64,000 bases of DNA, from positions 65,614-129,613 of the forward strand of contig JAQUPI010000001.1 in NCBI GenBank assembly GCA_028716705.1. Direction: 5' to 3'. The position numbers were made by a program, and so were the translations under genes. Source of the DNA: Candidatus Omnitrophota bacterium. Its GTDB lineage: Bacteria; Omnitrophota; Gorgyraeia; Gygaellales; Profunditerraquicolaceae. Shown here piece after piece: positions 7,251 to 63,167 of this stretch (position 1 is the first letter of the stretch; every line of letters begins with the position of its first letter). The notes beneath the pieces are model-generated. The model did no database searches. It was not told where the DNA came from and saw only the letters and a list, made by a program, of their open reading frames with translations.

Positions 7251-7699
7251 AAGAAGCGGGGATGTCCTTAATCGTGAAACGGATCACCAAGATCACCGTA
7301 AGCCTGATATTTTTATACGGGGTATATATTGTCCTTCATGGGCATATCACTCCGGGAGGGGGGTTTGCCGGAGGCGTGATCATCGCGTTATCTTTTATCC
7401 ATCTTGTGCTCGCTTTCGGAAAGGAAGCGGCATTAAAGAGGCTGAATGAAACAGCGGTGTCAGCGATCGAATCCTTAGGCGGGCTGCTCTTCTGGGGCAT
7501 AGCCCTTTTGGGGCTTTTGGGCGGCGTCTTCTTTTTAAATATCCTGCCCAAAGGCCGGATTTTTCATCTATTCAGTTCGGGCACCATCGTCCTTTGCAAT
7601 ATAGCCATATTCCTTAAGGTAGGCGCCGGGCTTTTCGCGATCTTCATTGCCTTGGCGGCAATGCGGATGCCGGCGGAGAAAAAAGAAGGTAAAAAATGA
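7247..7699 (+). CDS. MrpB/MnhB-like subunit
   Basis: 150 aa with HGHITPGGGFAGGVI, the MnhB HxxPGGGFxGG motif. Confidence 0.65.
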   Translation: MKEAGMSLIVKRITKITVSLIFLYGVYIVLHGHITPGGGFAGGVIIALSFIHLVLAFGKEAALKRLNETAVSAIESLGGLLFWGIALLGLLGGVFFLNILPKGRIFHLFSSGTIVLCNIAIFLKVGAGLFAIFIALAAMRMPAEKKEGKK

Positions 7700-11305: not shown

Positions 11306-12508
11306 ATGTTTTCTTCGCTAAAGGTAAAAACGTTCAGGTTCTATTGGCTGGGCATGTTTATTTCTCTTGTCGGCACCTGGGTGCAGTCCGTTGCCCAGAG
11401 CTGGCTGATGTTTGAATTGACTCAATCGGCGTTTTTGCTCGGCCTAGTCGTGTTTTTGAGTTCCATACCCATCTTCGCGCTTTCTCTTTTCGGGGGCGTA
11501 CTTGCCGACAGGATGAATAAAAAGAAGATCCTTTTGATAACGCAGAATATCTTTATGTTTCTGGCTTTTCTTTTAGCGATATTAACGCAGGCAAAATTGA
11601 TCACCCCGGAGCATATAATGATAATCGCCCTGGCCAACGGGATAGTAATGGCTTTCGATGCCCCTGCCCGCCAGTCAATGGTGGCGGAATTGGTGGGAAG
11701 GCAGTACCTTTTGAATGCCATAGCCCTTAATTCCGCGGCGTTTAATTCGGCGCGGATCATCGGCCCCGCCCTGGCGGGGATATTAATAGCGGCCATAGGC
11801 ATGAGCGGATGCTTTTACATAAACGGGGTAAGTTTTCTGGCTGTAATTATAGCGCTTTTAGTAATTAACCTTAATAACAAGAATAACAGGAAAAAAGCGC
11901 CGGAGAATTTTTTTATAAAAGACCTGAGTGAAGGGCTGAAATTCATAAAGGATAACCGTACCATACTCCTCTTGATCCTGATGGTAGGGGTGATCAGTTT
12001 ATTCGGGATCTCTTACGTTATACTTATGCCGGTTTTTGCCAATGAGGTTTTGGGCGCGGGAGTCAAGGGCCTGGCTTCGCTTATGTCTTCCGCCGGAGCT
12101 GGAGCTTTAGCGGGGGCGCTCATACTGGCGCGGCTGGGAGATTTTAAACATAAAGGAAAGCTTCTGGTCGTGTCTTCATTAGTGTTTTCTGTTTCTTTGA
12201 TGCTGTTTTCCCTCTCAAAAGTTTATCTGTTCTCCGTAATTATGCTGATTTTCATAGGCTGGGCTTCTATTACCGCTACGGGCCTGATAAATACTCTACT
12301 GCAGACGCTGGCCCCTGATGAACTCAGAGGCAGGGCAATGAGCGCGTTCATGCTTACCTTCGCCGGGTTTATGCCTTTCGGGAACCTTCTCGCAGGGGCG
12401 CTGGCCCATACCTTTGGGGTGTCAGTCGCGGTTTTTTTCGGAGGGGCAGCTTGCCTGATTTTCTTTACAGCGTTGAATTTGCTCTATCCTTCTATTAAGG
12501 ATATATAA
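11306..12508 (+). CDS. MFS transporter
   Basis: 400 aa, 12-TM-like hydropathy and an MFS-type N-terminal half. Confidence 0.7.
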   Translation: MFSSLKVKTFRFYWLGMFISLVGTWVQSVAQSWLMFELTQSAFLLGLVVFLSSIPIFALSLFGGVLADRMNKKKILLITQNIFMFLAFLLAILTQAKLITPEHIMIIALANGIVMAFDAPARQSMVAELVGRQYLLNAIALNSAAFNSARIIGPALAGILIAAIGMSGCFYINGVSFLAVIIALLVINLNNKNNRKKAPENFFIKDLSEGLKFIKDNRTILLLILMVGVISLFGISYVILMPVFANEVLGAGVKGLASLMSSAGAGALAGALILARLGDFKHKGKLLVVSSLVFSVSLMLFSLSKVYLFSVIMLIFIGWASITATGLINTLLQTLAPDELRGRAMSAFMLTFAGFMPFGNLLAGALAHTFGVSVAVFFGGAACLIFFTALNLLYPSIKDI

Positions 12509-16209: not shown

Positions 16210-16480
16210 CGAATGCCACGGCATCGCTAAAGAAAAAGGCTGGTGGGAGAGCGAACGTAATGATGGAGAGCTCATCGCGCTTATGCACTCTGAATTGTCC
16301 GAAGCCCTTGAGGCGATGCGCAGCCACGGGACAAAAGATAATATCGCCGAAGAATTAGCGGACTGCTGTATCCGCATCTTCGATTATTGCGGGGCCAGGG
16401 GAATCGACCTGGAAAAAATGCTGGTTAAGAAGATCGAATATAATAAGACCCGTCCTTACCGGCACGGGAAGAAGTTTTAA
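16172..16480 (+). CDS. Small MazG-like nucleotide pyrophosphohydrolase (all-alpha NTP-PPase)
   Basis: 102 aa. …GWWE…HSELSEALEA… and …EELADCCIRIFDYC… fit the MazG EExxE / EExxD metal-binding helices. 5' end overlaps the upstream lipoprotein gene by 38 nt. Confidence 0.6.
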   Translation: MRKEKKTIAKLINECHGIAKEKGWWESERNDGELIALMHSELSEALEAMRSHGTKDNIAEELADCCIRIFDYCGARGIDLEKMLVKKIEYNKTRPYRHGKKF

Positions 16481-16546
16481 TGAGCACGCAACTTATGGAA
16501 CGAGTGTTTAGTTAACGGGATAAAGAAGTTCAACATAGGAGGAAAA

Positions 16547-25116: not shown

Positions 25117-25908
25117 ATGGAGCATCTTTTTAAGGATTGGGAGGGCAGAAAAAAAGAATTCTCAGGGAAGACCCTGGCCTTTTTCTTTGATTTCGACGGT
25201 ACGCTTACGCCTATTGTAAGAAACCCGGGAAAGGCAGCCTTGCCTTTAGGAGTCAGAGGGCTGTTAAGAAAAATATCGGTAAACGGCAGGCACAGGCTGG
25301 CCATTGTAAGCGGCAGGGCGCTGGCGGACATTAAGAAAAAGATAAGCATCAGCGGTATAACCTACGTTGGCAATTACGGCCTGGAAATAGACGGGCCGAA
25401 GATAAGTTTCAGCAGCCCCGTTTCCCCCGGTTATAAAAAGGCGCTCAAATGCATAAAGAACTATATCAGCGATAGGATCGCCGTTATCAACGGCGCGCTG
25501 TTGGAGGATAAGGGTTTATCGTTGAGCCTTCATTACCGCCTTGCGCAGAGGAGTCAGATACCCAAAATAAAGAGCATTTTGCTTGAAGCGCTGACAATGT
25601 ATTCGGCCACGGATAAGATAAAAATAAATCTTGGGAAGAAGGTCTTTGAGATCCGTCCGGCCGGAGAATGGGGGAAGGGTAAGGTCGTGTTATGGCTTTT
25701 GGCGAGATGGCGGTTTAATAATAAGGACAAGGAAGTACTGCCTATTTATGCCGGAGACGATACAAGCGATGAAGAAGCCTTTAAGGCCCTGCGGAATGAG
25801 GGTATTACCATATTTGTGGGAGAAGCAAAGAAATCCTGCGCCCGCTATTATCTTAAAGATACAAGGGAAGTAAAAAATTTCTTGAAAGAAATTTCTAACC
25901 TGCGATAA
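25117..25908 (+). CDS. otsB: Trehalose-6-phosphate phosphatase (HAD superfamily)
   Basis: FFFDFDGTLTP (DxDGT motif I) and …GDDTSDEEAF (motif IV). Adjacent to otsA. Confidence 0.75.
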   Translation: MEHLFKDWEGRKKEFSGKTLAFFFDFDGTLTPIVRNPGKAALPLGVRGLLRKISVNGRHRLAIVSGRALADIKKKISISGITYVGNYGLEIDGPKISFSSPVSPGYKKALKCIKNYISDRIAVINGALLEDKGLSLSLHYRLAQRSQIPKIKSILLEALTMYSATDKIKINLGKKVFEIRPAGEWGKGKVVLWLLARWRFNNKDKEVLPIYAGDDTSDEEAFKALRNEGITIFVGEAKKSCARYYLKDTREVKNFLKEISNLR

Positions 25909-28383: not shown

Positions 28384-28456
28384 GCTGGCGTAGCTCAGTT
28401 GGTAGAGCAGCGCTTTCGTAAAGCGCGGGTCGGAGGTTCAATTCCTCTCGCCAGCT
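28384..28456 (+). tRNA. tRNA-Thr (CGU)
   Basis: Acceptor GCTGGCG/CGCCAGC. Anticodon arm GCGCT-TTCGTAA-AGCGC gives CGT. T-arm GGAGG-TTCAATT-CCTCT. Confidence 0.85.
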
Positions 28457-28604
28457 TTTAAGAACCGACGAACCGAAGGGGGTGTGGGGGAAAAGTGATG
28501 TCCCCCACGCCTGGGGGAGAACAGCGTAATTATTTATAGTTAACATATGGCTAGCGTTAGGAGGGGGCTTGCCCCCTCCTAAGGAGCGAGCGAAAAGCGA
28601 GCGA

Positions 28605-28637
28605 CGGGTCGGAGGTTCAATTCCTCTCGCCAGCTTT
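28605..28637 (+). repeat. 33-bp exact direct repeat of the tRNA-Thr 3' end (T-arm + 3' acceptor strand); first copy is 28426-28458
   Basis: cgggtcggaggttcaattcctctcgccagcttt occurs twice, 147 bp apart. The spacer holds two GC-rich hairpins (gtgggggaaaagtgatgtcccccac and ttaggagggggcttgccccctcctaa). Confidence 0.8.
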
Positions 28638-28660: not shown

Positions 28661-29914
28661 ATGTCCAAGTTTACCGGCGTATTAAGGAATCGTAACTTTT
28701 TCTTCTTGTGGCTTGGCCAGATAATCTCGCAGATGGGCGACAGGCTGGGGCAGATGGCTTTAATAGGGTTTGTCTACCTTAAAGCGCCAGGTTCCAGCTT
28801 CGAGATCGCCAAGGTCCTCTCGTTCACCATCATACCGGTATTTTTGATCGGCCCCCTTGCGGGGGTATATGTGGACAGATGGGACAGGCGGCGGACAATG
28901 TATGCCTGCGATCTCTTAAGGGCGGCCCTGGTTTCGATCATCCCGCTATTCTTATTCTATACCAAAAATATGACCCCCATATACTTGATAATCTTTGTGG
29001 TATTTTGCCTTGGCCGGTTTTTTGTTCCGGCGAAATTATCCATTATCCCGGACCTAGTGGAAAAAAAAGACCTGCTTATCGCTAACTCCCTGGTGAATAT
29101 TACCGGTATGATCGCCGCGATCATCGGTTTCGGCATAAGCGGCGTACTGGTGGAATGGATCGGGCCAAAAAGCGGATTTTACCTGAATGCCCTGACTTTT
29201 CTGGTTTCCGCCCTTTTTATTTTCCTTATCGCCAAGGGAAACGGGCACTTTATGGATTTCAAAAAGGTGGGCCAGGAAATCGTGGAGGTGATCAAAAAAT
29301 CGCTGTTTCAGGAGATTAAGGAAGGTATTTTATATTTTATTAAGAATAAGGATATCCGTTTTACCGCGGGAGTTACTTTTATTCTTTGGTCCGCCCTGGG
29401 TTCGATATACGTGGTGCTCATAGTATTCGTTCAGAATACGCTGCATTCGGCCACGAAAGACCTTGGCCTTTTGGTGATGTTCCTGGGTACGGGGCTGTTC
29501 CTTGGTTCTTTGGTTTACGGCAGGTTCGGCCAGCGTTTATCCCATTATAAGACCATATTCGCTTCTTTGATTTTAAGCGGCATGATGCTCATCGTTTTTG
29601 CCCTGGCCATAAGGCGTTATCCTTACTTTCCGATCGCGGCGGCGCTGTCGCTTTTACTGGGGTTTGTGATTTCGCCTATTATGATCGCCTCGAATACAAT
29701 TATCCACAATGTCAGCGATAGCGAAATGAGAGGGAAGATCTTCAGCTCAATGGAGATCGTTATGCACCTGGGCTTTTTGCTATTCATGTTCATCAGCGGG
29801 CTGCTCGCGGAGAGGTTATCGCATACGTTGATCTTGGTCATTGTGGGATGTGTTTTTGGTGTACTGGGCTTGATAAATTTGATCAGCAACCGTAAGATAC
29901 CGTGGTTAAATTAA
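28661..29914 (+). CDS. MFS transporter
   Basis: 417 aa, 12-TM pattern, MFS-like N-terminal motif region. Confidence 0.7.
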   Translation: MSKFTGVLRNRNFFFLWLGQIISQMGDRLGQMALIGFVYLKAPGSSFEIAKVLSFTIIPVFLIGPLAGVYVDRWDRRRTMYACDLLRAALVSIIPLFLFYTKNMTPIYLIIFVVFCLGRFFVPAKLSIIPDLVEKKDLLIANSLVNITGMIAAIIGFGISGVLVEWIGPKSGFYLNALTFLVSALFIFLIAKGNGHFMDFKKVGQEIVEVIKKSLFQEIKEGILYFIKNKDIRFTAGVTFILWSALGSIYVVLIVFVQNTLHSATKDLGLLVMFLGTGLFLGSLVYGRFGQRLSHYKTIFASLILSGMMLIVFALAIRRYPYFPIAAALSLLLGFVISPIMIASNTIIHNVSDSEMRGKIFSSMEIVMHLGFLLFMFISGLLAERLSHTLILVIVGCVFGVLGLINLISNRKIPWLN

Positions 29915-31221
29915 GAGAACACAAAAAAGAAACTGAAAATAAGGCCATAGAGAAGCTTGCAGCGCCCGCTAAGGTGTATATCCCGTTAAGCCAGCATATA
30001 GGCAAGCCCTGTGAACCTCTTGTCAAAGCGGGGGATTATGTTCATCTCGGGCAAAAGATCGCGGCCGCGCAAGCCAATGTCTATTCCCCTATTCATTCCT
30101 CGGTATCCGGCAAAGTCGCGGGGATACAGGATTGGCCTCATCCGGTTTTGGGCCGCTGCAGGGCAATAGTGATCGAAAACGATGGTTTGGACAAATTACC
30201 CGGCTCCCAGGCATGCCGGCCATCGGAAGAAATAAATAGTTTGGGCCCCGATAAAGTCCGCGACGCTGTATTAGAAGCCGGCATAGTGGGGATGGGCGGG
30301 GCGAGCTTTCCGTCGCATATAAAACTCAACCCTCCTAAGCCTGTCGATACCTTGATCGTTAACGGCGCGGAATGCGAACCATATTTGACCGGCGATTACC
30401 GCCTGATGGTAGAAAGAACAGAGGAGATCTTAAAAGGGATCGAGCTTATCGCGAAGTGTTTGGGTGTTAAAAATGTAATCATAGGGATTGAAGACAACAA
30501 GCCGGAAGCAATAGAAATCTTTAGTCGCAAGTCGCAAGTCACTGGCCCGATGGCCATGGTTTGTTTTCCGACGGGCAAAGCCGCAAGTTACAAGATAAAG
30601 GTTTTAAAGTCCCAATATCCGCAGGGAGGGGAAAAGCAGCTCATTTTGAATGTGCTGGGAAAAGAAGTCCCTTCCGGAAAACTCCCCTTTGAGATAGGGG
30701 TGGTCGTGCATAATGTCTCAACCGTATTCGCCATATACGAAGCGGTGTACTGCGGCAAGCCTTTATATGAACGGGTGGTGACGGTGGCCGGCAGCTGCGT
30801 ATCCAATCCCGGGAACTTTTTGGCGCGTATAGGAACGCCCTTCAAAGATTTGATCGATCCCCGCGGATTAAAAGAGGAGCCGGCTAAGATAATCGTAGGC
30901 GGGCCGATGATGGGGATCGCTCAATTCGACGATAAAACGCCGGTGATCAAGTCCACAACGGGTATATTGTTATACAGCAAAAAAGAGGCCCTGCTTAACG
31001 AGGAGCTGGCCTGTATCCGCTGCGGCGCCTGCGTCAGGGAGTGCCCGGCGTTCCTTATGCCTACTCTTATCAGCCTGGCTTCCAAAAAAGGCCTCTGGCC
31101 GCAGGCTAAAGTTTACGGCGCTTCTGACTGTATTGAATGCGGGATATGCAGTTACGTGTGCCCCTCAAACATCAGGCTGGTTCAGCACATAAAGAGGGCG
31201 AAGCTGGAGGTGGCGAGATGA
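29902..31221 (+). CDS. rnfC: Rnf electron transport complex subunit C
   Basis: …GMGGASFPSHIKL… NADH/FMN-site motif, two C-terminal 4Fe-4S motifs (CIRCGACVRECP, CIECGICSYVCP), NqrA-like N-terminus. Confidence 0.85.
   Translation: MVKLREHKKETENKAIEKLAAPAKVYIPLSQHIGKPCEPLVKAGDYVHLGQKIAAAQANVYSPIHSSVSGKVAGIQDWPHPVLGRCRAIVIENDGLDKLPGSQACRPSEEINSLGPDKVRDAVLEAGIVGMGGASFPSHIKLNPPKPVDTLIVNGAECEPYLTGDYRLMVERTEEILKGIELIAKCLGVKNVIIGIEDNKPEAIEIFSRKSQVTGPMAMVCFPTGKAASYKIKVLKSQYPQGGEKQLILNVLGKEVPSGKLPFEIGVVVHNVSTVFAIYEAVYCGKPLYERVVTVAGSCVSNPGNFLARIGTPFKDLIDPRGLKEEPAKIIVGGPMMGIAQFDDKTPVIKSTTGILLYSKKEALLNEELACIRCGACVRECPAFLMPTLISLASKKGLWPQAKVYGASDCIECGICSYVCPSNIRLVQHIKRAKLEVAR
30524..30543 (+). repeat. Heptanucleotide tandem repeat (GTCGCAA)2-GTCAC inside rnfC, in frame (encodes SRKSQVTG)
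   Basis: agtcgcaagtcgcaagtcact read directly. The same motif family occurs in purD at 51630-51664. Confidence 0.6.
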
Positions 31222-35297: not shown

Positions 35298-36169
35298 TAC
35301 GCGGGCAGGGGCCTGGAATATAGCGTCGCCTTGTCCAGGATCATTCTATCCCCCGTAAGCAGGTCATTTATCTCCACGCGCGAAAAATCCCGGAAATCAT
35401 AAGCCTTTACGCAGTAATTTACAATATTCAAGAATTCCTTCATGATGTCAAAGGGCTTCGCGGGTTCCAGGGATTTGGCGGAATACTCCAGGATAAAAGC
35501 CCCGTCATTGAATATGCCGTCAATTTTCTCGATCTTGAAATTATTCTTCAGCTCCTCCGCCTGAAGCTTTACGGTGAGCCTTTGGACCATCTGCTGGGTG
35601 AGGAAATCCGGCAGGGTAATGTTATAGAATTTCAGGTGCGATCCGGACGCATCCTTTATTGCCTGCGTATTTAAGCCGAATTTCATCACGTACCTTTTGT
35701 TGAGCTCCGTGGAAGGCATGTCCCCGCCATAAGACTTCTTTATATCCATTACATTTCCCATAATAATATAATCCAGCCCGATATTTATATCCGAAGACCA
35801 GAGCGCGAAGAATTCAGGCGCTTTATCCGCGCTCAGAAGGACCCGGCCGACGGTGGTAAGTATGTTCCGCAATTTATCGGTCATCTCCTCATCCAGTACC
35901 TTGCCTTCGGTGACCCCGTATTCTTTATGTAATATTTTTTGCAGAGGTATGTATATCCAAATGGTGGTATCGGTCATGCGGGCAAGCACATCGAGGCCAT
36001 ACTCCTCTTTACATATCTGTTTAACATGATAAGGGATATCTTCTCCCTTGAAGGTTGGTTCAAAGGATTCCTGGCAACCGGATAAAGTTAGGAGAAGGAG
36101 GAGGCTAAATAACGGCAGGGCGGCTTTTACCAAATTCTTTGAAAATAGCTTCGATCTCATCATAATCAA
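35294..36169 (-). CDS. Lipoprotein of unknown function
   Basis: Signal peptide with lipobox LSGC, 291 aa. 5' end overlaps the ftsH-like 3' end by ~65 nt. Confidence 0.5.
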   Translation of the reverse strand: MIMMRSKLFSKNLVKAALPLFSLLLLLTLSGCQESFEPTFKGEDIPYHVKQICKEEYGLDVLARMTDTTIWIYIPLQKILHKEYGVTEGKVLDEEMTDKLRNILTTVGRVLLSADKAPEFFALWSSDINIGLDYIIMGNVMDIKKSYGGDMPSTELNKRYVMKFGLNTQAIKDASGSHLKFYNITLPDFLTQQMVQRLTVKLQAEELKNNFKIEKIDGIFNDGAFILEYSAKSLEPAKPFDIMKEFLNIVNYCVKAYDFRDFSRVEINDLLTGDRMILDKATLYSRPLPAY

Positions 36170-37811
36170 GCTCTTCTTTCTTAAGCAGCTCTTCAGCGAA
36201 GCGGTCTAAAAGCGGGCTTTCTTTTTTTAGGAGGATTTCCACTTCCTTAAGGCAACCCTGCAGGATATCCTGTGTTTCCTGGTTCAGTTGTTCCTTTATC
36301 TTTTCGGACAAGAACGATACCTTTTCGCCGCGAAAGACCCCGTATTCCGAATGGGACGTTTCCAGGAGGGTGTAATCGCCGATAAGGCCGCTGTTCCCCA
36401 TGCCGAAACGCCAGACCATCTGGTGGGCGTACCACATTGCCTGATGGAAATCGGAAGCTACGCCTGTAGTAGTGGTGTTGAACTTCAATTTTTCAGCGAC
36501 ATAAGAACCAAGCGAAGATTTTATCTGGCCGAGCCATTCTTCCTTAGTATGCACATGCAGCTCTTCGCGCGGGTGCGGCACCACCATCCCTAAAGCTCCT
36601 CCGCGGGCGGTGATGGTAGCCTTGAATACGTCGTGAAAAGGCTGCAGGAAATATGTGGCAACGGCATGGCCCGCTTCGTGATAGGCGACTTTTTTCCTCT
36701 CACCCTCGTTAAAAATGACCTTGTGCTTTATGCCCATTTCCACCCTGTCCATCGCTTCCGTAATTTCCTTAAGGCCGATCCTTTCCTTTTTATTACGTAC
36801 CGCTATCAGGGCCGCTTCGCGCACGAGATTGGAGATATCGGCCGGGCTTTTGCGCACTGCCATGCGCGCCAGGCGCGGCAAATCCAATGAGGCGTCGTAT
36901 TTTACGTCTTTCAGATAATAAGCGAATAATTTTTCCCTTTCCTCCAGATTCGGCAAGTCAACGTAGATCTTACGGTCAAACCTGCCCGGCCTTAATAGGG
37001 CCTGGTCGAGGAAGGTTTCCGGCGCGTTCGTGGCGCCGATCAGGACAACATTATAGTCCTTTTCTTTAAGCCCGTCCATTTCCACGAGCAGCTGGTTCAA
37101 AGTGGTGTTGGATTCTGTCTGCCCGCCGAAGCCCCTGTCCGCGGCGCGCTGGGCGCCTACGGCGTCCAGCTCATCTATGAAGATGATGCATCCGCCTTCG
37201 ACATAAGCCAGCTGCCTTGCCTGTTTGAAAAGTTTACGGATGCGGCTGGCGCCGACACCGACGAACATTTCTATGAATTCTGACCCCGACATGGACAAGA
37301 AAGGCATATTCGCTTCGGTAGCTATCGCCTTTGCCAGGTAAGTCTTTCCGCAGCCGGGAGGGCCGATCATCAGTATACCCCTTAAGATCTTTCCCCCGAT
37401 AAGCTGCAGCTGGGCGCGGTCAACGACCAGGCGGACCACCTCCATCGCTTCCTGTTTTCCTTCTTCCATGCCGATGACGTCAGACCAGTGGATGCTGATC
37501 TCTTTGCCTTCTACCGCCTTTTTATGCAGGTGGGTGAATTTCATATGCCCGCCGCGCATAAGCCATATCCAGAGCGCGCCGCTTAAAGGAAGGCTTATGA
37601 CGTGCAGGACCAGGAAGATATAAAAGAAGAGTCCGTACTGGGCGAGAGCGGCTTTTTTAAAGTAGGATTCCGAAGTGGTCCACGCGGTTATGGCGTTTCT
37701 CAGGAAGAATATAAAAGAGATACCCAGTATCGTGGCTAAAAGGGCGATAGTCAGGCCCAGCCAGTGGAACTGTAGGAAAAGCTTTATTTTCCGTGTATTT
37801 TTCTTATTCAT
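36105..37811 (-). CDS. ftsH: FtsH-family ATP-dependent zinc metalloprotease paralogue with short N-terminal membrane region
   Basis: Walker A GPPGCGKT, Walker B IIFIDELD, second region of homology [21 protein letters not shown], and M41 HEAGHAV zinc motif. Confidence 0.8.
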
Positions 37812-37877
37812 TCCAATAAAGATAACATACTTTTTTTACGGTGTCAACCTAATAACTCACCTTTTGGGCGTTTTCTG

Positions 37878-37905
37878 TTGACTTAAAATTTATTCGTGAT
37901 AAAAT
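37878..37905 (+). promoter_or_regulatory. Sigma70-like promoter upstream of eno
   Basis: TTGACT - 16 nt - TAAAAT. RBS GAGGAGG at 37935. Confidence 0.4.
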
Positions 37906-37944
37906 CTATTGGTTCAAATTCCAAATTTACATTGAGGAGGAATA

Positions 37945-39210
37945 ATGGCTAAGATAAAAAAAGTTTTGGCGCGCGAGATCCTGGATTCAAGGGGCAATCC
38001 CACGGTGGAAGTGGATATAGTTTTGGATTCGGGCATACTGGGAAGGGCGGCTGTCCCTTCGGGGGCCTCTACCGGAGAAAAGGAGGCCTTGGAATTAAGG
38101 GACGGCGACAAGAAGAGGTATTTAGGTAAGGGGGTTTTGAAGGCGGTAAATAACGTAAATACGCTTGTGGCCTCTAAGATCAAAGGAATGAACGCGGATT
38201 TCAGGAAGATAGATAAACTACTTATCGACCTGGATGGGACGCAATTCAAATCCAAGTTAGGCGCCAACGCCATCCTGGGAGTGTCCATGGCAGCCGCCAA
38301 GGCGGACGCTTTATCCAAAAAACAGGCTTTATATAAATATTTGGGTAAGGGTACCGCCGCTGTCCTGCCGGTCCCCTTGATGAACATTTTAAACGGAGGC
38401 CTGCATGCCGACAATAACCTGGATATACAGGAGTTCATGATTGTTCCGGCGGGCGCCCCCAGCTTTCGCGAGGCGCTCAGGGCCGCGGCGGAAGTATTCC
38501 ATAATCTGAAATCGATCCTGAAATCAAAAAAGCTTTCTACATCCGTCGGAGACGAGGGCGGGTTTGCCCCTAGTTTGAATTCAAACGAAGAAGCCCTGCG
38601 ATTGATACTGGAAGCGATCGAGAAGGCCGGGTATAAACCTGGAGGAGATGTTTTTCTGGCGTTAGACTGCGCGGCAAGTTCATTCTATAAGGACGGGTCT
38701 TACAGCTTCGAAAATTCACAAAAGAGCTCTTCCGACTTGATCGCCATATATGAAAAATGGCTGGATAAATATCCTCTTTTATCCATCGAAGACGGGCTTT
38801 CCGAGCATGACAGCGCGGGATGGATAGAGATGACCTCCCGCCTGGGTAAAAAATTGCAGCTGGTGGGAGACGACATATTCGTTACCAACCCCGCGATCTT
38901 TAAGGAAGGCATTAAGCATGGAATAGCCAATGCCATCCTGGTGAAGGTAAACCAGATAGGTTCCCTTTCTGAGACGCTGGAAGTCCTGGATATGGCCAAA
39001 AAGAATAAATATAAAGCGGTGATCTCCCATCGTTCAGGCGAGACCGAGGATACGACTATCGCGCATCTCGCGGTGGCCTCCGGCTGCGGCCAGATCAAGA
39101 CGGGTTCCGTATCGCGCACGGATAGGATCTGCAAATATAACGAACTTTTGAGGATTGAAGAGGAGCTTGGGGGTAAAGCGGTGTATGCCGGGCGCCTCAT
39201 GAAAAAATGA
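37945..39210 (+). CDS. eno: Enolase
   Basis: [24 protein letters not shown]…, SHRSGETED, and a full-length match to enolase. Confidence 0.95.
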
Positions 39211-45529: not shown

Positions 45530-46298
45530 AGTCTGCGTATTGAGGACGGCGGGGACCAACTGCGATAAAGAGACGGCATTCGCCTTTTCTGAAGCGGGCG
45601 CCTCCGCGGAATTAGCGCACATCAACAGTTTATTTGAGCCGCAAAAGAAACTGAGTGAGTACGATATCCTGGCGATCCCCGGAGGTTTCTCGTACGGGGA
45701 TGACGTTGCCGCGGGAAAGATCCTGGCAAACGAGCTAAGATACAAGTTAATAGGCGACATAAAAAAATTCATTCAGGATGGGAAATTGATCATCGGCATT
45801 TGCAACGGTTTCCAGGTATTGGTAAGGAGCGGCCTGTTGCCCGGCAGCCCTTCGTTGTCACAGGAAGCCAGCCTGATCATAAATGATTCGGGGAAGTTCG
45901 AGGACCGGTGGGTTCATCTTAAAAATCCCAAATCCCAAAAGAAATGTATTTGGACAAAAGGATTGCCGGGATTGATTTCGTTACCTATAGCGCATGGGGA
46001 AGGAAAATTCGTGGTAAAAGACAAGTTTGTCTTAGAGCGGATTGAGGAACAGGGGCAGATCGTTTTCCAATACTGCGACGAGGAAGGGAAAGCCGGGGAT
46101 TATCCCGTCAATCCAAACGGGTCAACCGGGGACATCGCCGGTATCTGCGACGAGACGGGCAGGATCTTTGGCCTTATGCCGCACCCCGAAAGGCATATAT
46201 CCGTTTTACAGCATCCCCGCTGGCCAAGATCAAAAAAACACGGGGATGGTTCAATGATATTCGCAAACGCCGTGAATTATTGCAGGAGGAATCTATGA
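45516..46298 (+). CDS. purQ: FGAM synthase I (glutamine amidotransferase subunit)
   Basis: MAKPKVCVLRTAGTNCDKE…, catalytic Cys in GICNGFQ, HPER motif. Confidence 0.85.
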   Translation: MAKPKVCVLRTAGTNCDKETAFAFSEAGASAELAHINSLFEPQKKLSEYDILAIPGGFSYGDDVAAGKILANELRYKLIGDIKKFIQDGKLIIGICNGFQVLVRSGLLPGSPSLSQEASLIINDSGKFEDRWVHLKNPKSQKKCIWTKGLPGLISLPIAHGEGKFVVKDKFVLERIEEQGQIVFQYCDEEGKAGDYPVNPNGSTGDIAGICDETGRIFGLMPHPERHISVLQHPRWPRSKKHGDGSMIFANAVNYCRRNL

Positions 46299-50513: not shown

Positions 50514-51827
50514 ATGAGAATATTAGTAGTTGGTTCAGGAGGCCGGGAGCACGCCTTAATTTGGAAGATCGCGCAGTCGAAATTAACGGAAAAGATCTTT
50601 TGCGCGCCGGGCAACGGCGGGATCTCTCAGCAGGCGGAATGCGTCGACATAAAGGCGGAAGATATCCCCGGATTGTTAGAGTTCGCGCGGAAAGAAAAGA
50701 TAGATCTGACCGTTGTCGGCCCTGAAGGGCCTCTGCGCGGCGGGATTGCGGACGCGTTTAACAATTACGGGTTAAGTATATTCGGACCGGATAAAAAGGC
50801 GGCTCAGTTAGAGGCGAGCAAGATCTTCGCCAAGGAACTTATGGCAAAATATGGAGTTCCTACCGCCGATTTCAAGGTTTTTGACAACGCGGACGCGGCA
50901 AAGCGGTATATCGAGAGCAAGGGCGCCCCTTGCGTGGTCAAGGCGGACGGTTTAGCGCAGGGCAAGGGTGTGATCGTCGCAAAAAATGTCGATGAAGCGA
51001 AAGCCGCGGTAACCTCGATAATGCAGGAAAAAGCCTTTGGAGAGGCGGGAAACAGGATTATAGTCGAGGAATGCCTGCGGGGCGAGGAGGCATCCATCAT
51101 CGTGCTTACAGATTCGCGGGAAGTCGTTCCATTGGCTTCGAGCCAGGACCACAAAAGGATCTTTGACGGCGACGAGGGCCCGAACACGGGAGGCATGGGA
51201 GCTTATTCTCCGGCCCCTGCCGTAACCGGAGCCGTATTTAAGGAGATATTGGAGAAGATCGTTTACCGGGCAATAGACGGCTTGAGCAAGGAAGGGATCA
51301 ACTATAAGGGCGCTCTATACGCCGGTGTTATGCTCACAAAGGAAGGCCCGAAGGCCCTGGAATTCAACGCCCGTTTCGGCGATCCGGAAACCCAGGCGAT
51401 AGTGCCGAGATACAAAACAGACTTGCTGGAGGCGATGCTCGCCGTAAGCGGCCAGAATTTGAGGAAAGTGGTGAAGGCGGGAGGCTTAAAATGGGATAGC
51501 CGCGCTTGCGTAAGCGTGGTGTGCGCCTCCGGAGGATACCCCGGAAAATATGAAAAAGGCAAAGAAATATCGGGGCTGGAGGAAGTAGCTAAGATGCAAG
51601 ATGTGGTGGTATTCCACGCCGGCACTAAGAAGTCACAAGTCACAGGTCACAGGTCACAAGTAAAATATTTGACCAGCGGCGGCAGGGTTTTAGGCGTAAC
51701 CGGATTGGGTAATACTATCGCCGCCGCGATCGAGACCGTATATCGGGCGGTAGAGAAGATCCATTTCGAGGGGATGCAATACAGAAGAGATATAGGGGCC
51801 AAAGCTTCAGGGGCACGCCCTTCCTGA
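50514..51827 (+). CDS. purD: Phosphoribosylamine--glycine ligase
   Basis: MRILVVGSGGREHALIWKIAQS… and ATP-grasp motifs. Contains an in-frame heptamer-repeat insertion near …VVFHAGTKKSQVTGHRSQVKYLTSGGRVLGV…. Confidence 0.9.
   Translation: MRILVVGSGGREHALIWKIAQSKLTEKIFCAPGNGGISQQAECVDIKAEDIPGLLEFARKEKIDLTVVGPEGPLRGGIADAFNNYGLSIFGPDKKAAQLEASKIFAKELMAKYGVPTADFKVFDNADAAKRYIESKGAPCVVKADGLAQGKGVIVAKNVDEAKAAVTSIMQEKAFGEAGNRIIVEECLRGEEASIIVLTDSREVVPLASSQDHKRIFDGDEGPNTGGMGAYSPAPAVTGAVFKEILEKIVYRAIDGLSKEGINYKGALYAGVMLTKEGPKALEFNARFGDPETQAIVPRYKTDLLEAMLAVSGQNLRKVVKAGGLKWDSRACVSVVCASGGYPGKYEKGKEISGLEEVAKMQDVVVFHAGTKKSQVTGHRSQVKYLTSGGRVLGVTGLGNTIAAAIETVYRAVEKIHFEGMQYRRDIGAKASGARPS
51630..51664 (+). repeat. 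Heptanucleotide tandem repeat (AAGTCAC)2(AGGTCAC)2-AAGTAAA inside purD, in frame
   Basis: aagtcacaagtcacaggtcacaggtcacaagtaaa read directly. Encodes KSQVTGHRSQVK, which lengthens the loop before the conserved GGRVL motif. Confidence 0.6.
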
Positions 51828-56058: not shown

Positions 56059-56475
56059 ATGGTGGAAATGGAATTGAATAAGATCGTCATAGATGAGAAG
56101 AGGCACGACCAGTTGATCGTCCTAAAGGAGAAAGGCGGCGAGAGGATCCTGCCTATCGTGATCGGGTTGAACGAGGCCTCCGCCATCAAGTTGAAAATAA
56201 GCGGGTTCCAGCCGCCGAGGCCGCTGACCCATGACCTTTTGCATACGACGATCGAGAACCTGCACGCGAGCATCGAGAAGATCATTATCGATAAGCTGGA
56301 AGAGAATACGTTCCACGCCAAGCTGGTCATCAAGACCGGATCAGGGGATATAAAGGTCATCGATGCCCGCCCTTCGGATAGCATCGCCCTGGCGGTAAGG
56401 GCCCGCGCGCCGATATTCGTGGAAGACGACGTAGTAAAACAGTCGGAAGTTTTTAACAAAAAACCGGTAGAATAA
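56059..56475 (+). CDS. Bifunctional nuclease family protein (DUF151)
   Basis: …LVIDEKRHDQLIVLKEKGGERILPIVIGLNEASAI… is a DUF151-like N-terminus. Confidence 0.6.
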   Translation: MVEMELNKIVIDEKRHDQLIVLKEKGGERILPIVIGLNEASAIKLKISGFQPPRPLTHDLLHTTIENLHASIEKIIIDKLEENTFHAKLVIKTGSGDIKVIDARPSDSIALAVRARAPIFVEDDVVKQSEVFNKKPVE

Positions 56476-63015: not shown

Positions 63016-63022
63016 ATTCTTA

Positions 63023-63111
63023 GTAACTAGTAAAATAGTAACGAGTAACTAGTAATTTTTTTCAGTTTTTAGCTCTGATTACCAGTTACTAGTTACTGGA
63101 TTACTAGTTAC
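63023..63111. repeat. Array of four copies of 11-mer GTAACTAGTAA (two direct, 30-nt gap, two inverted) in the helicase promoter region
   Basis: GTAACTAGTAA at 63023-33 and 63045-55. Its reverse complement TTACTAGTTAC at 63086-96 and 63101-11. Each copy has an ACTAGT palindromic core. Confidence 0.6.
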
Positions 63112-63167
63112 TTATTATATTCTAAAATTATTGATTTATCCACGCAAAAAGTGTAAAATAATGCTCA

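What the first reader, a model, noticed from the sequence alone, without database searches (positions are those of the whole stretch)
51630..51664. Same heptamer repeat (AAGTCAC)2(AGGTCAC)2 expands a conserved PurD loop
PurD normally reads …HAGT-(about 11 aa)-GGRVL…. Here the segment is KKSQVTGHRSQVKYLTS (17 aa), generated by four to five tandem 7-mers. The 35-nt tract is not a multiple of 21 but is still in frame. This implies selection to keep the enzyme readable while the repeat expands or contracts. Paired with the rnfC tract, it suggests a contingency-like or slippage-prone element family sitting in essential genes.
Basis: seen in the sequence. Interest (0 to 1): 0.55.

Follow-up and report, generated by a model that had tools for sequence, protein, structure and literature searches.

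The report
In-frame heptamer repeat in PurD loop
A real 32-base run of 7-base repeats adds seven amino acids to a surface loop of a purine-synthesis enzyme in an Omnitrophota bacterium; it is one of many such repeats that this phylum carries in frame in conserved enzymes, and it looks like a stable tolerated insert, not a genetic switch.

Summary
Window 51630-51661 is a 4.6-copy heptamer array, (AAGTCAC)2(AGGTCAC)2AAGT, inside an intact purD (50514-51827). It makes the FHAGT…GGRV loop 17 aa. That loop is 10 aa in solved PurD structures, in all non-Omnitrophota orthologues fetched and in about a quarter of Omnitrophota orthologues. The net gain is 7 aa, or 21 nt, or 3 units.

The tract is not a local oddity. 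In 812 kb of Omnitrophota loci, period-7 arrays of at least 20 nt number 65, against 2 in shuffles. The same loops of PurD, RnfC, PurM, PurQ and PurL carry arrays of 4-5 copies with different 7- or 8-nt units in different lineages.

Three units of any length keep the frame. A heptamer array gives the same cyclic peptide in any phase, so the KSQVTG shared with RnfC is automatic.

The contingency-locus reading is not supported. The tract is short and imperfect. No length variants appear in independent assemblies of this species or in nine other clusters of at least 90% identity. No frameshifted allele was seen.

Best reading: a fixed, tolerated array of the cyanobacterial heptamer-repeat (STRR) type at a β-hairpin tip, remodelled slowly by slippage. 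Some relatives carry identical array-containing elements in two genes, so copy-and-paste spread remains possible.

The parts
50514..51827 (+). purD (phosphoribosylamine-glycine ligase), 437 aa, intact
   Evidence: ORF. It is 100% identical to an annotated Omnitrophota PurD and carries the GARS_N, GARS_A and GARS_C Pfam domains. PDB PurDs match at E = 1e-135 over residues 1-431. The AlphaFold2 model has mean pLDDT 85.5.
51627..51677 (+). Loop-coding segment between FHAGT and GGRV (17 codons, KKSQVTGHRSQVKYLTS)
   Evidence: The orthologous loop is 10 aa in outgroups and in PDB structures. In the model, strands 371-373 and 385-387 flank a coil at 374-384; mean pLDDT is 76 for residues 371-380 and 86 for 381-390.
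51630..51661 (+). Heptamer array: AAGTCAC (51630-36), AAGTCAC (51637-43), AGGTCAC (51644-50), AGGTCAC (51651-57), AAGT (51658-61)
   Evidence: Tandem Repeats Finder: period 7, 4.6 copies, 92% matches; sequence. The unit has no stop codon in any of the three frames. There is no RNA structure (z = -0.37) and no Rfam hit.
29902..31221 (+). rnfC (rsxC), 439 aa, host of the companion tract
   Evidence: ORF; annotated orthologues and RnfC Pfam domains.
30523..30542 (+). rnfC array, 5' part: AGTCGCA AGTCGCA AGTCAC (2.9 units)
   Evidence: Orthologous RnfC sites carry perfect arrays of 4.4 copies: AGTCACA (L274), AGTCACCA (L275) and AGTTCAG (L273).
30543..30584 (+). 42-nt in-frame insertion that interrupts the rnfC array (encodes GPMAMVCFPTGKAA)
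   Evidence: Found by alignment with L274, which lacks it. It is unique in the window and not hairpin-prone (z = -0.21).
30585..30595 (+). rnfC array, 3' remainder (AAGTTACAAGA, about 1.6 degenerate units)
   Evidence: The two parts together total 4.4 units, as in the uninterrupted orthologue L274.
45923..45939 (+). (AAATCCC)x2.4 in purQ, at the loop where relatives carry arrays of 4 or more units
   Evidence: Tandem Repeats Finder. The PurQ alignment places it at the site of the L010, L012, L013 and L033 arrays.
63021..63055 (+). Intergenic heptamer array (TAGTAAC)x4.9, left arm of an inverted pair
   Evidence: The hairpin folds at -36.3 kcal/mol, z = -6.4. It lies between divergent genes.
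63079..63112 (+). Intergenic heptamer array (TTACTAG)x4.7, right arm, the reverse complement of the left arm

Best explanation
The tract is a fixed, in-frame heptanucleotide microsatellite of the type known from cyanobacteria as STRR (short tandemly repeated repetitive sequences). It adds seven residues (3 units, 21 nt) at the tip of a β-hairpin in the C-terminal domain of a functional PurD.

It is a tolerated by-product of a phylum-wide tendency of Omnitrophota genomes to make and keep arrays of about 4-5 units of 7 nt, occasionally 8 nt.

Selection acts only as a filter, in three ways:
- The unit must be free of stop codons in all three frames.
- The net length change must be a multiple of 3. 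For a unit not divisible by 3 this means steps of three units, so states of about 1.6 and 4.6 copies are allowed.
- The site must be an insertion-tolerant surface loop.

Slippage, or conversion within the array, slowly remodels and homogenises the units. On population time scales the tract is stable and does not switch the gene.

Shown here: the anatomy, the insertion size, the phylum-wide recurrence, the frame logic and the lack of polymorphism. Inferred: near-neutrality, slippage as the generating process, and exposure of the loop.
For: **The array and its reading frame**.

**Loop length**
- Among 120 Omnitrophota PurDs the loop is 10 aa in 28 and 14-19 aa in most of the others.
- It is 10 aa in all non-Omnitrophota loci and in PDB structures 2yw2 and 3mjf.

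**DNA of the expanded loops**
- They are tandem arrays of different units: ACGACGG, AACGACC, ACCAGTC, AGTGCGA, the octamer ACCAAGTC, and a perfect AAGTCAC array in L201.

**Period spectrum**
- In Omnitrophota loci there are 42 arrays of period 7 and 5 of period 8, with none of periods 3-6 or 9.
- Period-7 arrays of at least 20 nt number 65 real against 2 shuffled.

**Same pattern in other enzymes**
- RnfC, PurM, PurQ and PurL show it at fixed loops.
- Perfect arrays of 4.4 copies with three different units sit at the identical RnfC position.

**Frame filter**
- 32 of 33 arrays in ORFs are stop-free on the coding strand. All but one (46 nt) of the 33 are 34 nt or shorter, while intergenic arrays reach 55 nt.
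- Octamer arrays also have about 4.4 copies.
- Some 10-aa loops look like 3-unit collapses: KKLSAKYLTN against KKLSALSCQLSAKYVTS, and the 418-aa RnfC against the 425-aa form.

**Stability**
- No length variants occur in ten clusters of at least 90% identity.
- The same-species JGI contig differs by one SNP in the array.

**Turnover**
- The two adjacent AGGTCAC units here suggest a variant spreading within the array.
- Unit-wide changes are homogenised in relatives: AAGTCAC, AAGTCACC and AGTCACC.

**Structure**
- The repeat-coded residues 374-384 are coil between two short strands in an otherwise confident model.

**Literature**
- Heptamers are the most over-represented long simple repeats in bacteria, and polymerase slippage has been proposed as the cause (PMC4679880 and PMC4692102, both citing Mrazek et al. 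2007).
Against: - Simple one-unit slippage would pass through frameshifted, presumably lethal intermediates. Single-step gains of three units are postulated, not observed.
- Many arrays in relatives are 100% perfect although the host proteins are 25% or more diverged. Some renewal process therefore has to be assumed.
- The array is 30/32 nt identical between the window and L201, while the gene is 69% identical and third codon positions 41%. That is slower divergence than neutral drift predicts.
- The same unit, sometimes with the same pattern of variant units or identical flanks, occurs in several genes of one genome (L006, L010, L013, L033, L035). Purely local slippage does not explain this.
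- Neutrality of the 7-aa insert and solvent exposure of the loop were not measured.
Confidence: 0.58

Rival explanations
1. Copy-and-paste origin. The array was not born locally. It is a very small mobile (or ectopically converted) element: a heptamer array of about 30 nt, sometimes flanking a palindromic or other core. Such elements spread to new sites within a genome and survive only where they land in frame in tolerant loops.
For: - L033 carries an identical 66-nt element (array, 30-nt core, array) in frame in both PurL and PurQ, with unrelated flanks.
- L013 carries an identical 57-nt composite at two sites: GCTATCC x3, then CTGCCTTGCCGGCAGGCAGGC, then GCTATCC x1.9.
- L006 has AACGACC arrays in PurL, PurQ and PurD with a shared pattern of variant units.
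- L010 has the same unit in PurQ, PurM and PurD.
- Sharing of identical units within a locus exceeds permutations: 12 pairs against a mean of 3.1 with none of 2000 permutations reaching 12, and 3 loci against 0.75, P = 0.02.
- The window and L201 share the array although each has closer relatives with other loops.
- Genome-wide families of one heptamer unit are known elsewhere, for example 169 TAACTGA sets in one Beggiatoaceae genome, with no known mechanism (PMC4679880).
Against: - For the PurD tract itself there is no second copy with shared flanks in the 64-kb window.
- The rnfC tract shares only the unit, with one mismatch. That happens in 4.4% of random array pairs.
- PurD and RnfC proteins that appear to come from the same contig (paired only by equal contig length) mostly carry different units.
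- A 32-nt insert is not in frame, so a net gain of 21 nt would also require an 11-nt target deletion.
- At PurM the last array unit overlaps the conserved flanking codons (my reading of the sequences, an inference not tested further), which fits local seeding.
- No transposase or other machinery was identified.
Confidence: 0.25
2. Contingency locus. The heptamer tract is hypermutable and switches purD on and off, or tunes it, by gain and loss of units. This would suit a host-dependent bacterium that can sometimes salvage purines.
For: - A change of one 7-nt unit would frameshift the last 60 or so residues, including GGRVLGV.
- Heptanucleotide tracts do drive phase variation in Haemophilus hmw genes (PMC8262952).
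- Passing through frameshifted intermediates would explain how arrays grow unit by unit.
Against: - The tract has only 4.6 units, two of them variant.
- There are no length variants in independent assemblies of this species (one SNP only) or in nine other clusters of at least 90% identity.
- purD is in frame through the loop in all 51 Omnitrophota loci examined, including L019, which looked suspect at first.
- The same 17-aa array is kept in a lineage 25% diverged in protein.
- The hosts are housekeeping enzymes, not surface or restriction genes.
Confidence: 0.04
3. Adaptive protein feature. The extended hairpin has a selected role, such as an interaction surface, oligomerisation or stability, and the DNA repeat is only how it arose.
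For: Expanded loops are retained in about three quarters of Omnitrophota PurDs, and a given version is stable within each clade.
Against: - Loop sequences are unrelated between clades, for example KSQVTSH, TTNDQRP, APRSTLH and LQTTNFQ.
- Ancestral-type 10-aa loops persist in many interspersed lineages.
- The same phenomenon hits unrelated enzymes and intergenic DNA.
- The region is modelled as coil with lowered confidence.
Confidence: 0.05
4. Nucleic-acid signal. The direct heptamer repeats are binding sites on DNA or mRNA for a protein that reads 7-nt units (a cold-shock or S1-like protein, as proposed for TAACTGA repeats). This would give post-transcriptional or replication-related control.
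For: - The array DNA is conserved beyond synonymous expectation: 30/32 nt against 41% identity at third positions.
- The same unit is used at several sites in some genomes.
- The intergenic arrays at 63021-63112 lie 6 nt and 56 nt upstream of two divergent start codons, like the TAACTGA repeats (PMC4679880).
Against: - Units differ between sites within most genomes and between genomes at the same site.
- There is no structure and no Rfam family at the tract.
- No candidate binding protein was identified, and the idea is unproven even in the systems where it was proposed.
Confidence: 0.05
5. Sequencing or assembly artefact.
For: None specific. Repeats can in principle be mis-assembled.
Against: At 32 nt the tract is far shorter than reads or k-mers. 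The identical protein is recorded under two NCBI accessions and in a Logan assembly, and a JGI contig has the same array with one SNP.
Confidence: 0.01

Closest known systems
Cyanobacterial STRR heptanucleotide repeats and the general over-representation of heptamer simple repeats in bacteria (Mazel et al. 1990 from my own knowledge; Mrazek et al. 2007 as cited in PMC4679880 and PMC4692102)
   Same: - Tandem 7-nt units.
- Many arrays per genome.
- Period 7 strongly favoured over neighbouring periods.
- Units specific to lineages.
- Inverted pairs of arrays occur in intergenic DNA.
   Different: - Here the array lies in frame inside a conserved housekeeping enzyme.
- In genes, copy number clusters tightly at about 4.4-4.9 units.
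- The same protein loops are occupied across a phylum by arrays with different units.
- My searches of the held library found no description of this in Omnitrophota.
TAACTGA direct repeats of marine Beggiatoaceae (PMC4679880) and GGGAATC / GGGGAYT repeats of Xanthomonas and Nostoc (PMC4692102)
   Same: - Sets of 2-6 heptamer copies dispersed at many sites.
- Some lie within ORFs and give 7-aa periodic peptides.
- Some form inverted pairs.
- Length varies between related species.
- The mechanism of spread is unknown.
   Different: - Those are single dominant units per genome, mostly intergenic, just upstream of start codons or G-quadruplex-prone.
- Here there are many units per genome and a large share lies inside essential genes.
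- AAGTCAC is not G-rich and has no stop codon in any frame.
Small dispersed repeats (SDR) of Nostoc (Elhai et al. 2008, PMC2527708; not held, so recalled from memory and via the citation in PMC3116915)
   Same: Relatives carry a conserved 21-nt palindromic core (CTGCCTNNCCGGCAGGCAGGC) in the middle of heptamer arrays, and other short in-frame inserts within arrays. As I recall it, SDRs likewise nest in heptamer repeats and in coding genes.
   Different: The PurD tract has no core or hairpin. The cores here differ in sequence from what I recall of the SDR families. I could not check the paper's text.
Rickettsia palindromic elements (RPE) inserted in frame in protein genes (Ogata et al. 2000; my own knowledge)
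   Same: Short repeated DNA survives in frame at tolerant surface positions of conserved proteins and adds a peptide segment without destroying function.
   Different: RPEs are palindromic elements of 100-150 bp with one consensus per family. This tract is a 32-nt direct tandem array with no palindrome.
Contingency loci (phase-variable simple repeats of Haemophilus and Neisseria; for example PMC8262952, PMC12721329)
   Same: A repeat unit not divisible by 3 lies inside or next to a gene, so single-unit changes would shift the frame or alter expression.
   Different: The tract is short and imperfect. No copy-number polymorphism was found. The host gene is a housekeeping enzyme, and it is in frame through the loop in all 51 Omnitrophota loci examined.

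Membership tests
Heptanucleotide simple repeat / STRR-type array | Head-to-tail copies of a 7-nt unit, at least 3 copies | tested here: met
   Tandem Repeats Finder: period 7, 4.6 copies, 92% matches.
Heptanucleotide simple repeat / STRR-type array | Period 7 over-represented in the genome or lineage relative to other periods and to chance | tested here: met
   42 arrays of period 7 against 5 of period 8 and none of periods 3-6 or 9. Arrays of at least 20 nt: 65 real against 2 shuffled. The three best-scoring short-period arrays in the window are all heptamers.
Heptanucleotide simple repeat / STRR-type array | The same unit recurs at many sites of one genome | tested here: inconclusive
   In the window only rnfC shares the unit, with one mismatch, and that is not significant alone (4.4% of random pairs). 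In related loci sharing exceeds permutation (P = 0.02 at locus level). No whole genome was available.
Heptanucleotide simple repeat / STRR-type array | Mainly intergenic location | tested here: not met
   This tract is inside purD. For the population, 33 arrays lie in ORFs and 24 outside them. About 91% of bases lie in long ORFs, so density is higher between genes, but a large share is genic.
Contingency locus (phase-variable simple repeat) | Copy number differs among closely related strains or within populations | tested here: not met
   Independent assemblies of this species show the same length and one SNP. Nine other clusters of at least 90% identity show no loop-length variants. Read-level data could not be examined.
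Contingency locus (phase-variable simple repeat) | Long, perfect tract that favours slippage | tested here: not met
   4.6 units, two of them variant.
Contingency locus (phase-variable simple repeat) | Out-of-frame (off) alleles exist | tested here: not met
   purD reads through the loop in frame in all 51 Omnitrophota loci examined. The L019 suspicion was resolved as in frame. The short members of the protein clusters share no PurD sequence and are not PurD fragments.
In-frame miniature mobile elements (RPE / SDR-like) | Near-identical copies, including flanks of the element, at unrelated loci of one genome | tested here: inconclusive
   Not seen for the PurD tract in 64 kb. Seen for array-containing elements in relatives: L033 66 nt twice, L013 57 nt twice.
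In-frame miniature mobile elements (RPE / SDR-like) | Palindromic or hairpin potential | tested here: not met
   Folding of 51580-51720 gives z = -0.37. The tract consists of direct repeats only.
In-frame miniature mobile elements (RPE / SDR-like) | Inserted in frame at a tolerant position of a conserved protein, absent from orthologues | tested here: met
   The tract adds 7 aa at a hairpin tip and is absent from outgroups and PDB structures.
PurD (GAR synthetase) | GARS N, ATP-grasp and C domains over the full length, with conserved motifs intact | tested here: met
   Pfam PF02844, PF01071 and PF02843. PDB 2yw2 matches at E = 2e-135 over residues 1-431. Invariant motifs are present.

The most novel reading that the evidence does not exclude
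Heptamer or octamer arrays of about 30 nt, alone or flanking a conserved 21-nt palindromic core, are very small mobile (copy-and-paste or ectopically converted) elements of Omnitrophota. They repeatedly colonise the same insertion-tolerant loops of essential enzymes and persist in frame. The PurD and RnfC tracts of this window would be two members. This would be a class of mobile DNA far below the size of miniature inverted-repeat transposable elements, acting inside housekeeping genes, with no known machinery.
Probability: 0.27. Interest if true: 0.72.

Novelty: new member of a known kind. Interest (0 to 1): 0.5.

Why it matters
Heptamer repeats have been known for decades as the most over-represented long simple repeats in bacteria, but their origin and any role remain open.

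Here they sit inside conserved enzymes, at the same loops, across a whole phylum. Each orthologous site is therefore a natural replicate. Birth, three-unit collapse, unit turnover and nesting of small hairpin elements can be followed on a phylogeny, and read through a protein that must stay functional. That makes the choice between slippage and mobility directly testable.

Two practical points follow. Unusual loop insertions in Omnitrophota proteins are likely to be repeat-derived rather than functional. A repeat whose unit is not divisible by three, found in an essential gene, need not be a phase-variation switch.

Tried and rejected
1. **Is AAGTCAC a specially favoured unit?** (AAGTCAC)x3 gave at least 120 stretches in metagenomes, on contigs of GC 30-70%. 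In viral contigs it gave only 2, against 50 and 18 for two shuffled-order control units. Heptamer arrays of any unit are common, so this idea was rejected.
2. **Are the short members of PurD clusters frameshift fragments?** The members of 42-55 aa share no PurD sequence and look like spurious small ORFs. Rejected.
3. **Is L019 purD frameshifted at its array?** It is in frame, and my search pattern missed it because the motif reads GGRA. Rejected.
4. **Is there an RNA element at the tract?** Folding gives z = -0.37 and there is no Rfam hit. Rejected.
5. **Is the 42-nt insert in the rnfC array a dispersed or hairpin element?** It is unique in the window and folds at z = -0.21. No support.
6. **Does the KSQVTG peptide shared by PurD and RnfC show common insertion in one frame?** Rejected, because any in-frame copy of a heptamer array yields the same cyclic 7-aa peptide.
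There is no general rule of one unit per genome.
8. **Elhai et al. 2008 (PMC2527708)** could not be read because it is not held.
9. **The neighbour-joining tree of 120 PurDs** is nearly star-like (72-82% identity). The number of independent gains could not be counted reliably.
Full report
**1. The observation**

Window 51630-51661 reads AAGTCAC AAGTCAC AGGTCAC AGGTCAC AAGT. Tandem Repeats Finder scores it as period 7, 4.6 copies, 92% matches.

It lies in frame in a 437-aa ORF (50514-51827, +). That ORF is 100% identical to a protein annotated as phosphoribosylamine-glycine ligase of a Candidatus Omnitrophota genome bin, with the three GARS Pfam domains. The neighbouring genes are purB, purL, purQ, purF and purM upstream and purE downstream.

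The same protein is recorded under two NCBI accessions and in a Logan assembly. A JGI contig that is 99% identical in nucleotides carries the same array with a single SNP, GTA to TTA. The tract is therefore real and not an assembly artefact.

**2. Where it sits in the protein**

The array encodes KSQVTGHRSQV within the loop KKSQVTGHRSQVKYLTS, between FHAGT and GGRV.

Solved PurD structures have a 10-aa loop here; in 2yw2 it is KKEGNFTVTS. The alignment places a 7-residue gap opposite the repeat.

An AlphaFold2 model built on 120 orthologues has mean pLDDT 85.5. It puts short strands at 371-373 and 385-387 and coil at 374-384; mean pLDDT is 76 for residues 371-380. I infer that the repeat lengthens the tip of a β-hairpin in the C domain. 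Solvent exposure was not measured.

**3. Orthologues**

All fetched non-Omnitrophota PurD loci (Nitrospirota, Desulfurobacteriaceae, Firmicutes and others) have a 10-aa loop.

Among the 120 closest proteins, all Omnitrophota-like at 71-78% identity, the loop is:
- 10 aa in 28;
- 14-19 aa in 83;
- up to 28 aa in a few.

The expanded loops show a 7-aa, or sometimes 8-aa, internal period. At the DNA level they are tandem arrays of different units:
- (ACGACGG)x3.9 in L003;
- (AACGACC)x4.3 in L006;
- (ACCAGTC)x4.9 in L045;
- (AGTGCGA)x4.4 in L019;
- the octamer (ACCAAGTC)x4.5 in L004;
- a perfect (AAGTCAC)x4.6 in L201.

**4. The tract is one of a phylum-wide population**

I ran Tandem Repeats Finder on 51 Omnitrophota loci (812 kb), keeping arrays of at least 3 copies and score at least 40.
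- It finds 42 arrays of period 7, 5 of period 8, and none of periods 3-6 or 9.
- The 409 kb from other phyla hold 4 arrays of period 7.

At a lower threshold, period-7 arrays of at least 20 nt number 65, against 2 in shuffled sequence. Their lengths plateau up to 35 nt and then drop sharply.

About 58% of the arrays lie in long ORFs. Because some 90% of the sequence is ORF, density is higher between genes.

One caveat applies. Loci were assigned to the phylum from record titles, and some bins labelled 'Planctomycetales' group with Omnitrophota by identity.

**5. Other enzymes show the same thing at fixed loops**

In relatives, arrays occupy one particular loop each of PurM (LSLL[array]IKGIA), PurQ ([array]KC(I/V)W) and PurL. 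Units differ between genomes, and the short state is found in outgroups.

The window's own purQ has (AAATCCC)x2.4 exactly at that site.

DNA confirms perfect arrays of 4.4 copies at the identical position:
- AGTTCAG in L273;
- AGTCACA in L274;
- AGTCACCA in L275.

The window's rnfC tract is such an array (AGTCGCA AGTCGCA AGTCAC … AAGTTACAAGA). It is split by a unique 42-nt in-frame insertion.

**6. Frame logic**

A heptamer array inside an ORF is read in all three frames in turn. Three consequences follow.
- The unit must have no stop codon in any frame. 32 of 33 arrays in ORFs meet this.
- Any in-frame copy yields the same cyclic 7-aa peptide. The KSQVTG shared by PurD and RnfC is therefore automatic and is not evidence of a common frame.
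- Only net changes of three units keep the frame, whatever the unit length: 3 x 7 = 21 nt, 3 x 8 = 24 nt.

This fits several observations:
- the gain of 7 aa here;
- the gain of 8 aa for octamer loops;
- the clustering of genic arrays at about 4.4-4.9 copies, all but one of them 34 nt or shorter, while intergenic arrays reach 55 nt;
- short loops that look like 3-unit collapses, such as KKLSAKYLTN against KKLSALSCQLSAKYVTS, and the 418-aa RnfC 'FNYELR' against 'FNYELRATSYELR'. These pairs are only 77-82% identical, so this last point is suggestive and not proven.

**7. It is not a switch**

Ten protein clusters of at least 90% identity, about 40 sequences from several assemblies, show no loop-length variant. 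This species shows one SNP and no length change. purD reads through the loop in frame in all 51 Omnitrophota loci examined, including L019, which I suspected at first.

L201 is 75% identical in protein and 69% in nucleotides, with third positions 41% identical. It keeps the same array at 30/32 nt.

The tract is short and imperfect. These results argue against a contingency locus. Read-level minority alleles could not be examined.

**8. Turnover**

Three observations indicate that variants spread within arrays, a pattern known as concerted evolution.
- Perfect arrays with lineage-specific units sit at the same site.
- Whole-array unit changes occur: AAGTCAC, AAGTCACC and AGTCACC, seen at both PurD and RnfC.
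- The two adjacent AGGTCAC units here fit a variant spreading from one unit to its neighbour.

The mechanism is inferred. It could be slippage with three-unit steps, or conversion in a slipped register.

**9. Evidence that some arrays move**

- L033 has an identical 66-nt element (array, 30-nt core, array) in frame in both PurL and PurQ.
- L013 has an identical 57-nt composite at two sites.
- L006 has AACGACC arrays in three pur genes with a shared pattern of variant units.
- A conserved 21-nt palindrome (CTGCCTNNCCGGCAGGCAGGC, read as 'LPAGRQ') sits in the middle of arrays with different units in L010, L013 and L026. At the protein level it also appears in several PurD and RnfC orthologues.

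Sharing of identical units within a locus exceeds permutation: 12 pairs against a mean of 3.1, and 3 loci against 0.75 (P = 0.02).

Against generalising this:
- The window's PurD-RnfC similarity has a 4.4% chance per pair.
- AAGTCAC is not a specially favoured unit.

**10. Other readings tested**

There is no RNA structure (z = -0.37) and no Rfam family at the tract.

**11. Comparison with what is known**

Heptamers are the most over-represented long simple repeats in bacteria, and polymerase slippage has been proposed as the cause (Mrazek et al. 2007, as cited in PMC4679880 and PMC4692102).

Genome-wide families of single heptamer units are described in cyanobacteria (STRR), in Beggiatoaceae (TAACTGA, including some ORF-internal sets) and in Xanthomonas and Nostoc. 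None has a known mechanism of spread.

In-frame survival of small repeats in conserved proteins is known for Rickettsia palindromic elements and, as I recall, for the small dispersed repeats of Nostoc. I could not read that paper.

I found nothing on such repeats in Omnitrophota in the held library.

The tract is therefore a new member of a known kind. The added observation is that a phylum's conserved enzyme loops are recurrently occupied by arrays of about 4.5 units with lineage-specific sequences.

**12. Verdict**

Best explanation (confidence about 0.58): a fixed, tolerated, in-frame heptamer array at a hairpin tip, shaped by slippage under a three-unit frame filter.

Main rival (about 0.25): the array arrived as a very small mobile or converted element.

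A contingency switch, an adaptive loop, a nucleic-acid signal and an artefact are each unlikely.

Noticed in passing
window 63021-63112: Two heptamer arrays in inverted orientation, (TAGTAAC)x4.9 and (TTACTAG)x4.7, form a hairpin of -36 kcal/mol (z = -6.4). They lie between divergent genes whose start codons are at 63015 (minus strand) and 63168 (plus strand). Each gene therefore has a (GTTACTA)n array in the sense orientation of its own leader. The same unit occurs at L021 15561-15595.
   Followed up: partly
window 30543-30584: A 42-nt in-frame insertion (GPMAMVCFPTGKAA) splits the rnfC heptamer array. It is unique in the window and not hairpin-prone, and its origin is unknown.
   Followed up: partly
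L010 8966, L013 622 and 4710, L026 3275; also L017, L019, L021; protein level P0066, P0138, P0150, P0153: A conserved 21-nt palindrome, CTGCCTNNCCGGCAGGCAGGC (read as 'LPAGRQ'), sits in the middle of heptamer arrays with different units. It is found in frame in PurM, PurQ, PurD and RnfC of different genomes, and at the centre of intergenic inverted array pairs.
   Followed up: partly
L033 5144-5209 and 8377-8442: An identical 66-nt element, (ACGAACG)x3.6 then a 30-nt core then 1.6 units, is inserted in frame in both PurL and PurQ of one genome, with unrelated flanks.
   Followed up: partly
L023 (many sites, for example 1264-1291, 2275-2301, 7489-7553, 11816-11880, 16406-16511): An element of about 24-34 nt (AAAAAGGGGGACGTTTCTACTTTT) occurs more than ten times in 21 kb in both orientations, often as inverted pairs. 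It appears to be read in frame inside PurL (…KKGDVSTF…). L012 PurL has a similar insert.
   Followed up: no
proteins P0028 and P0072: These two PurDs are 98% identical outside the loop but differ by a 10-aa insertion (PRPCVQERGQ) inside the array-coded loop. This is a recent small-insert polymorphism, unlike unit copy number, which did not vary.
   Followed up: no
window 51630-51661 and L201 4072-4103: The array is 30/32 nt identical between two lineages whose purD genes are 69% identical, with third positions 41% identical. That is slower divergence than neutral drift would give.
   Followed up: partly
L004 3284-3319 and 3516-3549: The PurD octamer array (ACCAAGTC)x4.5 has a degenerate inverted partner (rc unit AAAGTCAC, 4.1 copies) about 200 nt downstream, just past the purD stop codon. 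Arrays directly after the purD stop are also seen in L017, L034, L038, L046 and L068.
   Followed up: no
window 28384-28456 and 28549-28636: tRNA-Thr(CGT) and tRNA-Arg(CCT) genes lie here. Their shared 33-nt 3' segment is the only long dispersed repeat in the window.
   Followed up: yes
window 1-64000: GC skew is positive in 31 of the 32 windows of 2 kb, slightly negative only at 36001-38000. The plus strand therefore appears to be the same replication strand throughout, and most genes are on it.
   Followed up: no
window 25279-25332 and 56240-56279: Two longer-period tandem repeats were reported: 27 nt x2.0 and 21 nt x1.9. They were not examined.
   Followed up: no
L081-L160 (metagenome contigs, GC 30-70%): (AAGTCAC)n arrays of up to 22 copies occur in many unrelated organisms. 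They often form inverted pairs and share contigs with several other heptamer arrays (for example L105, L108, L158).
   Followed up: partly
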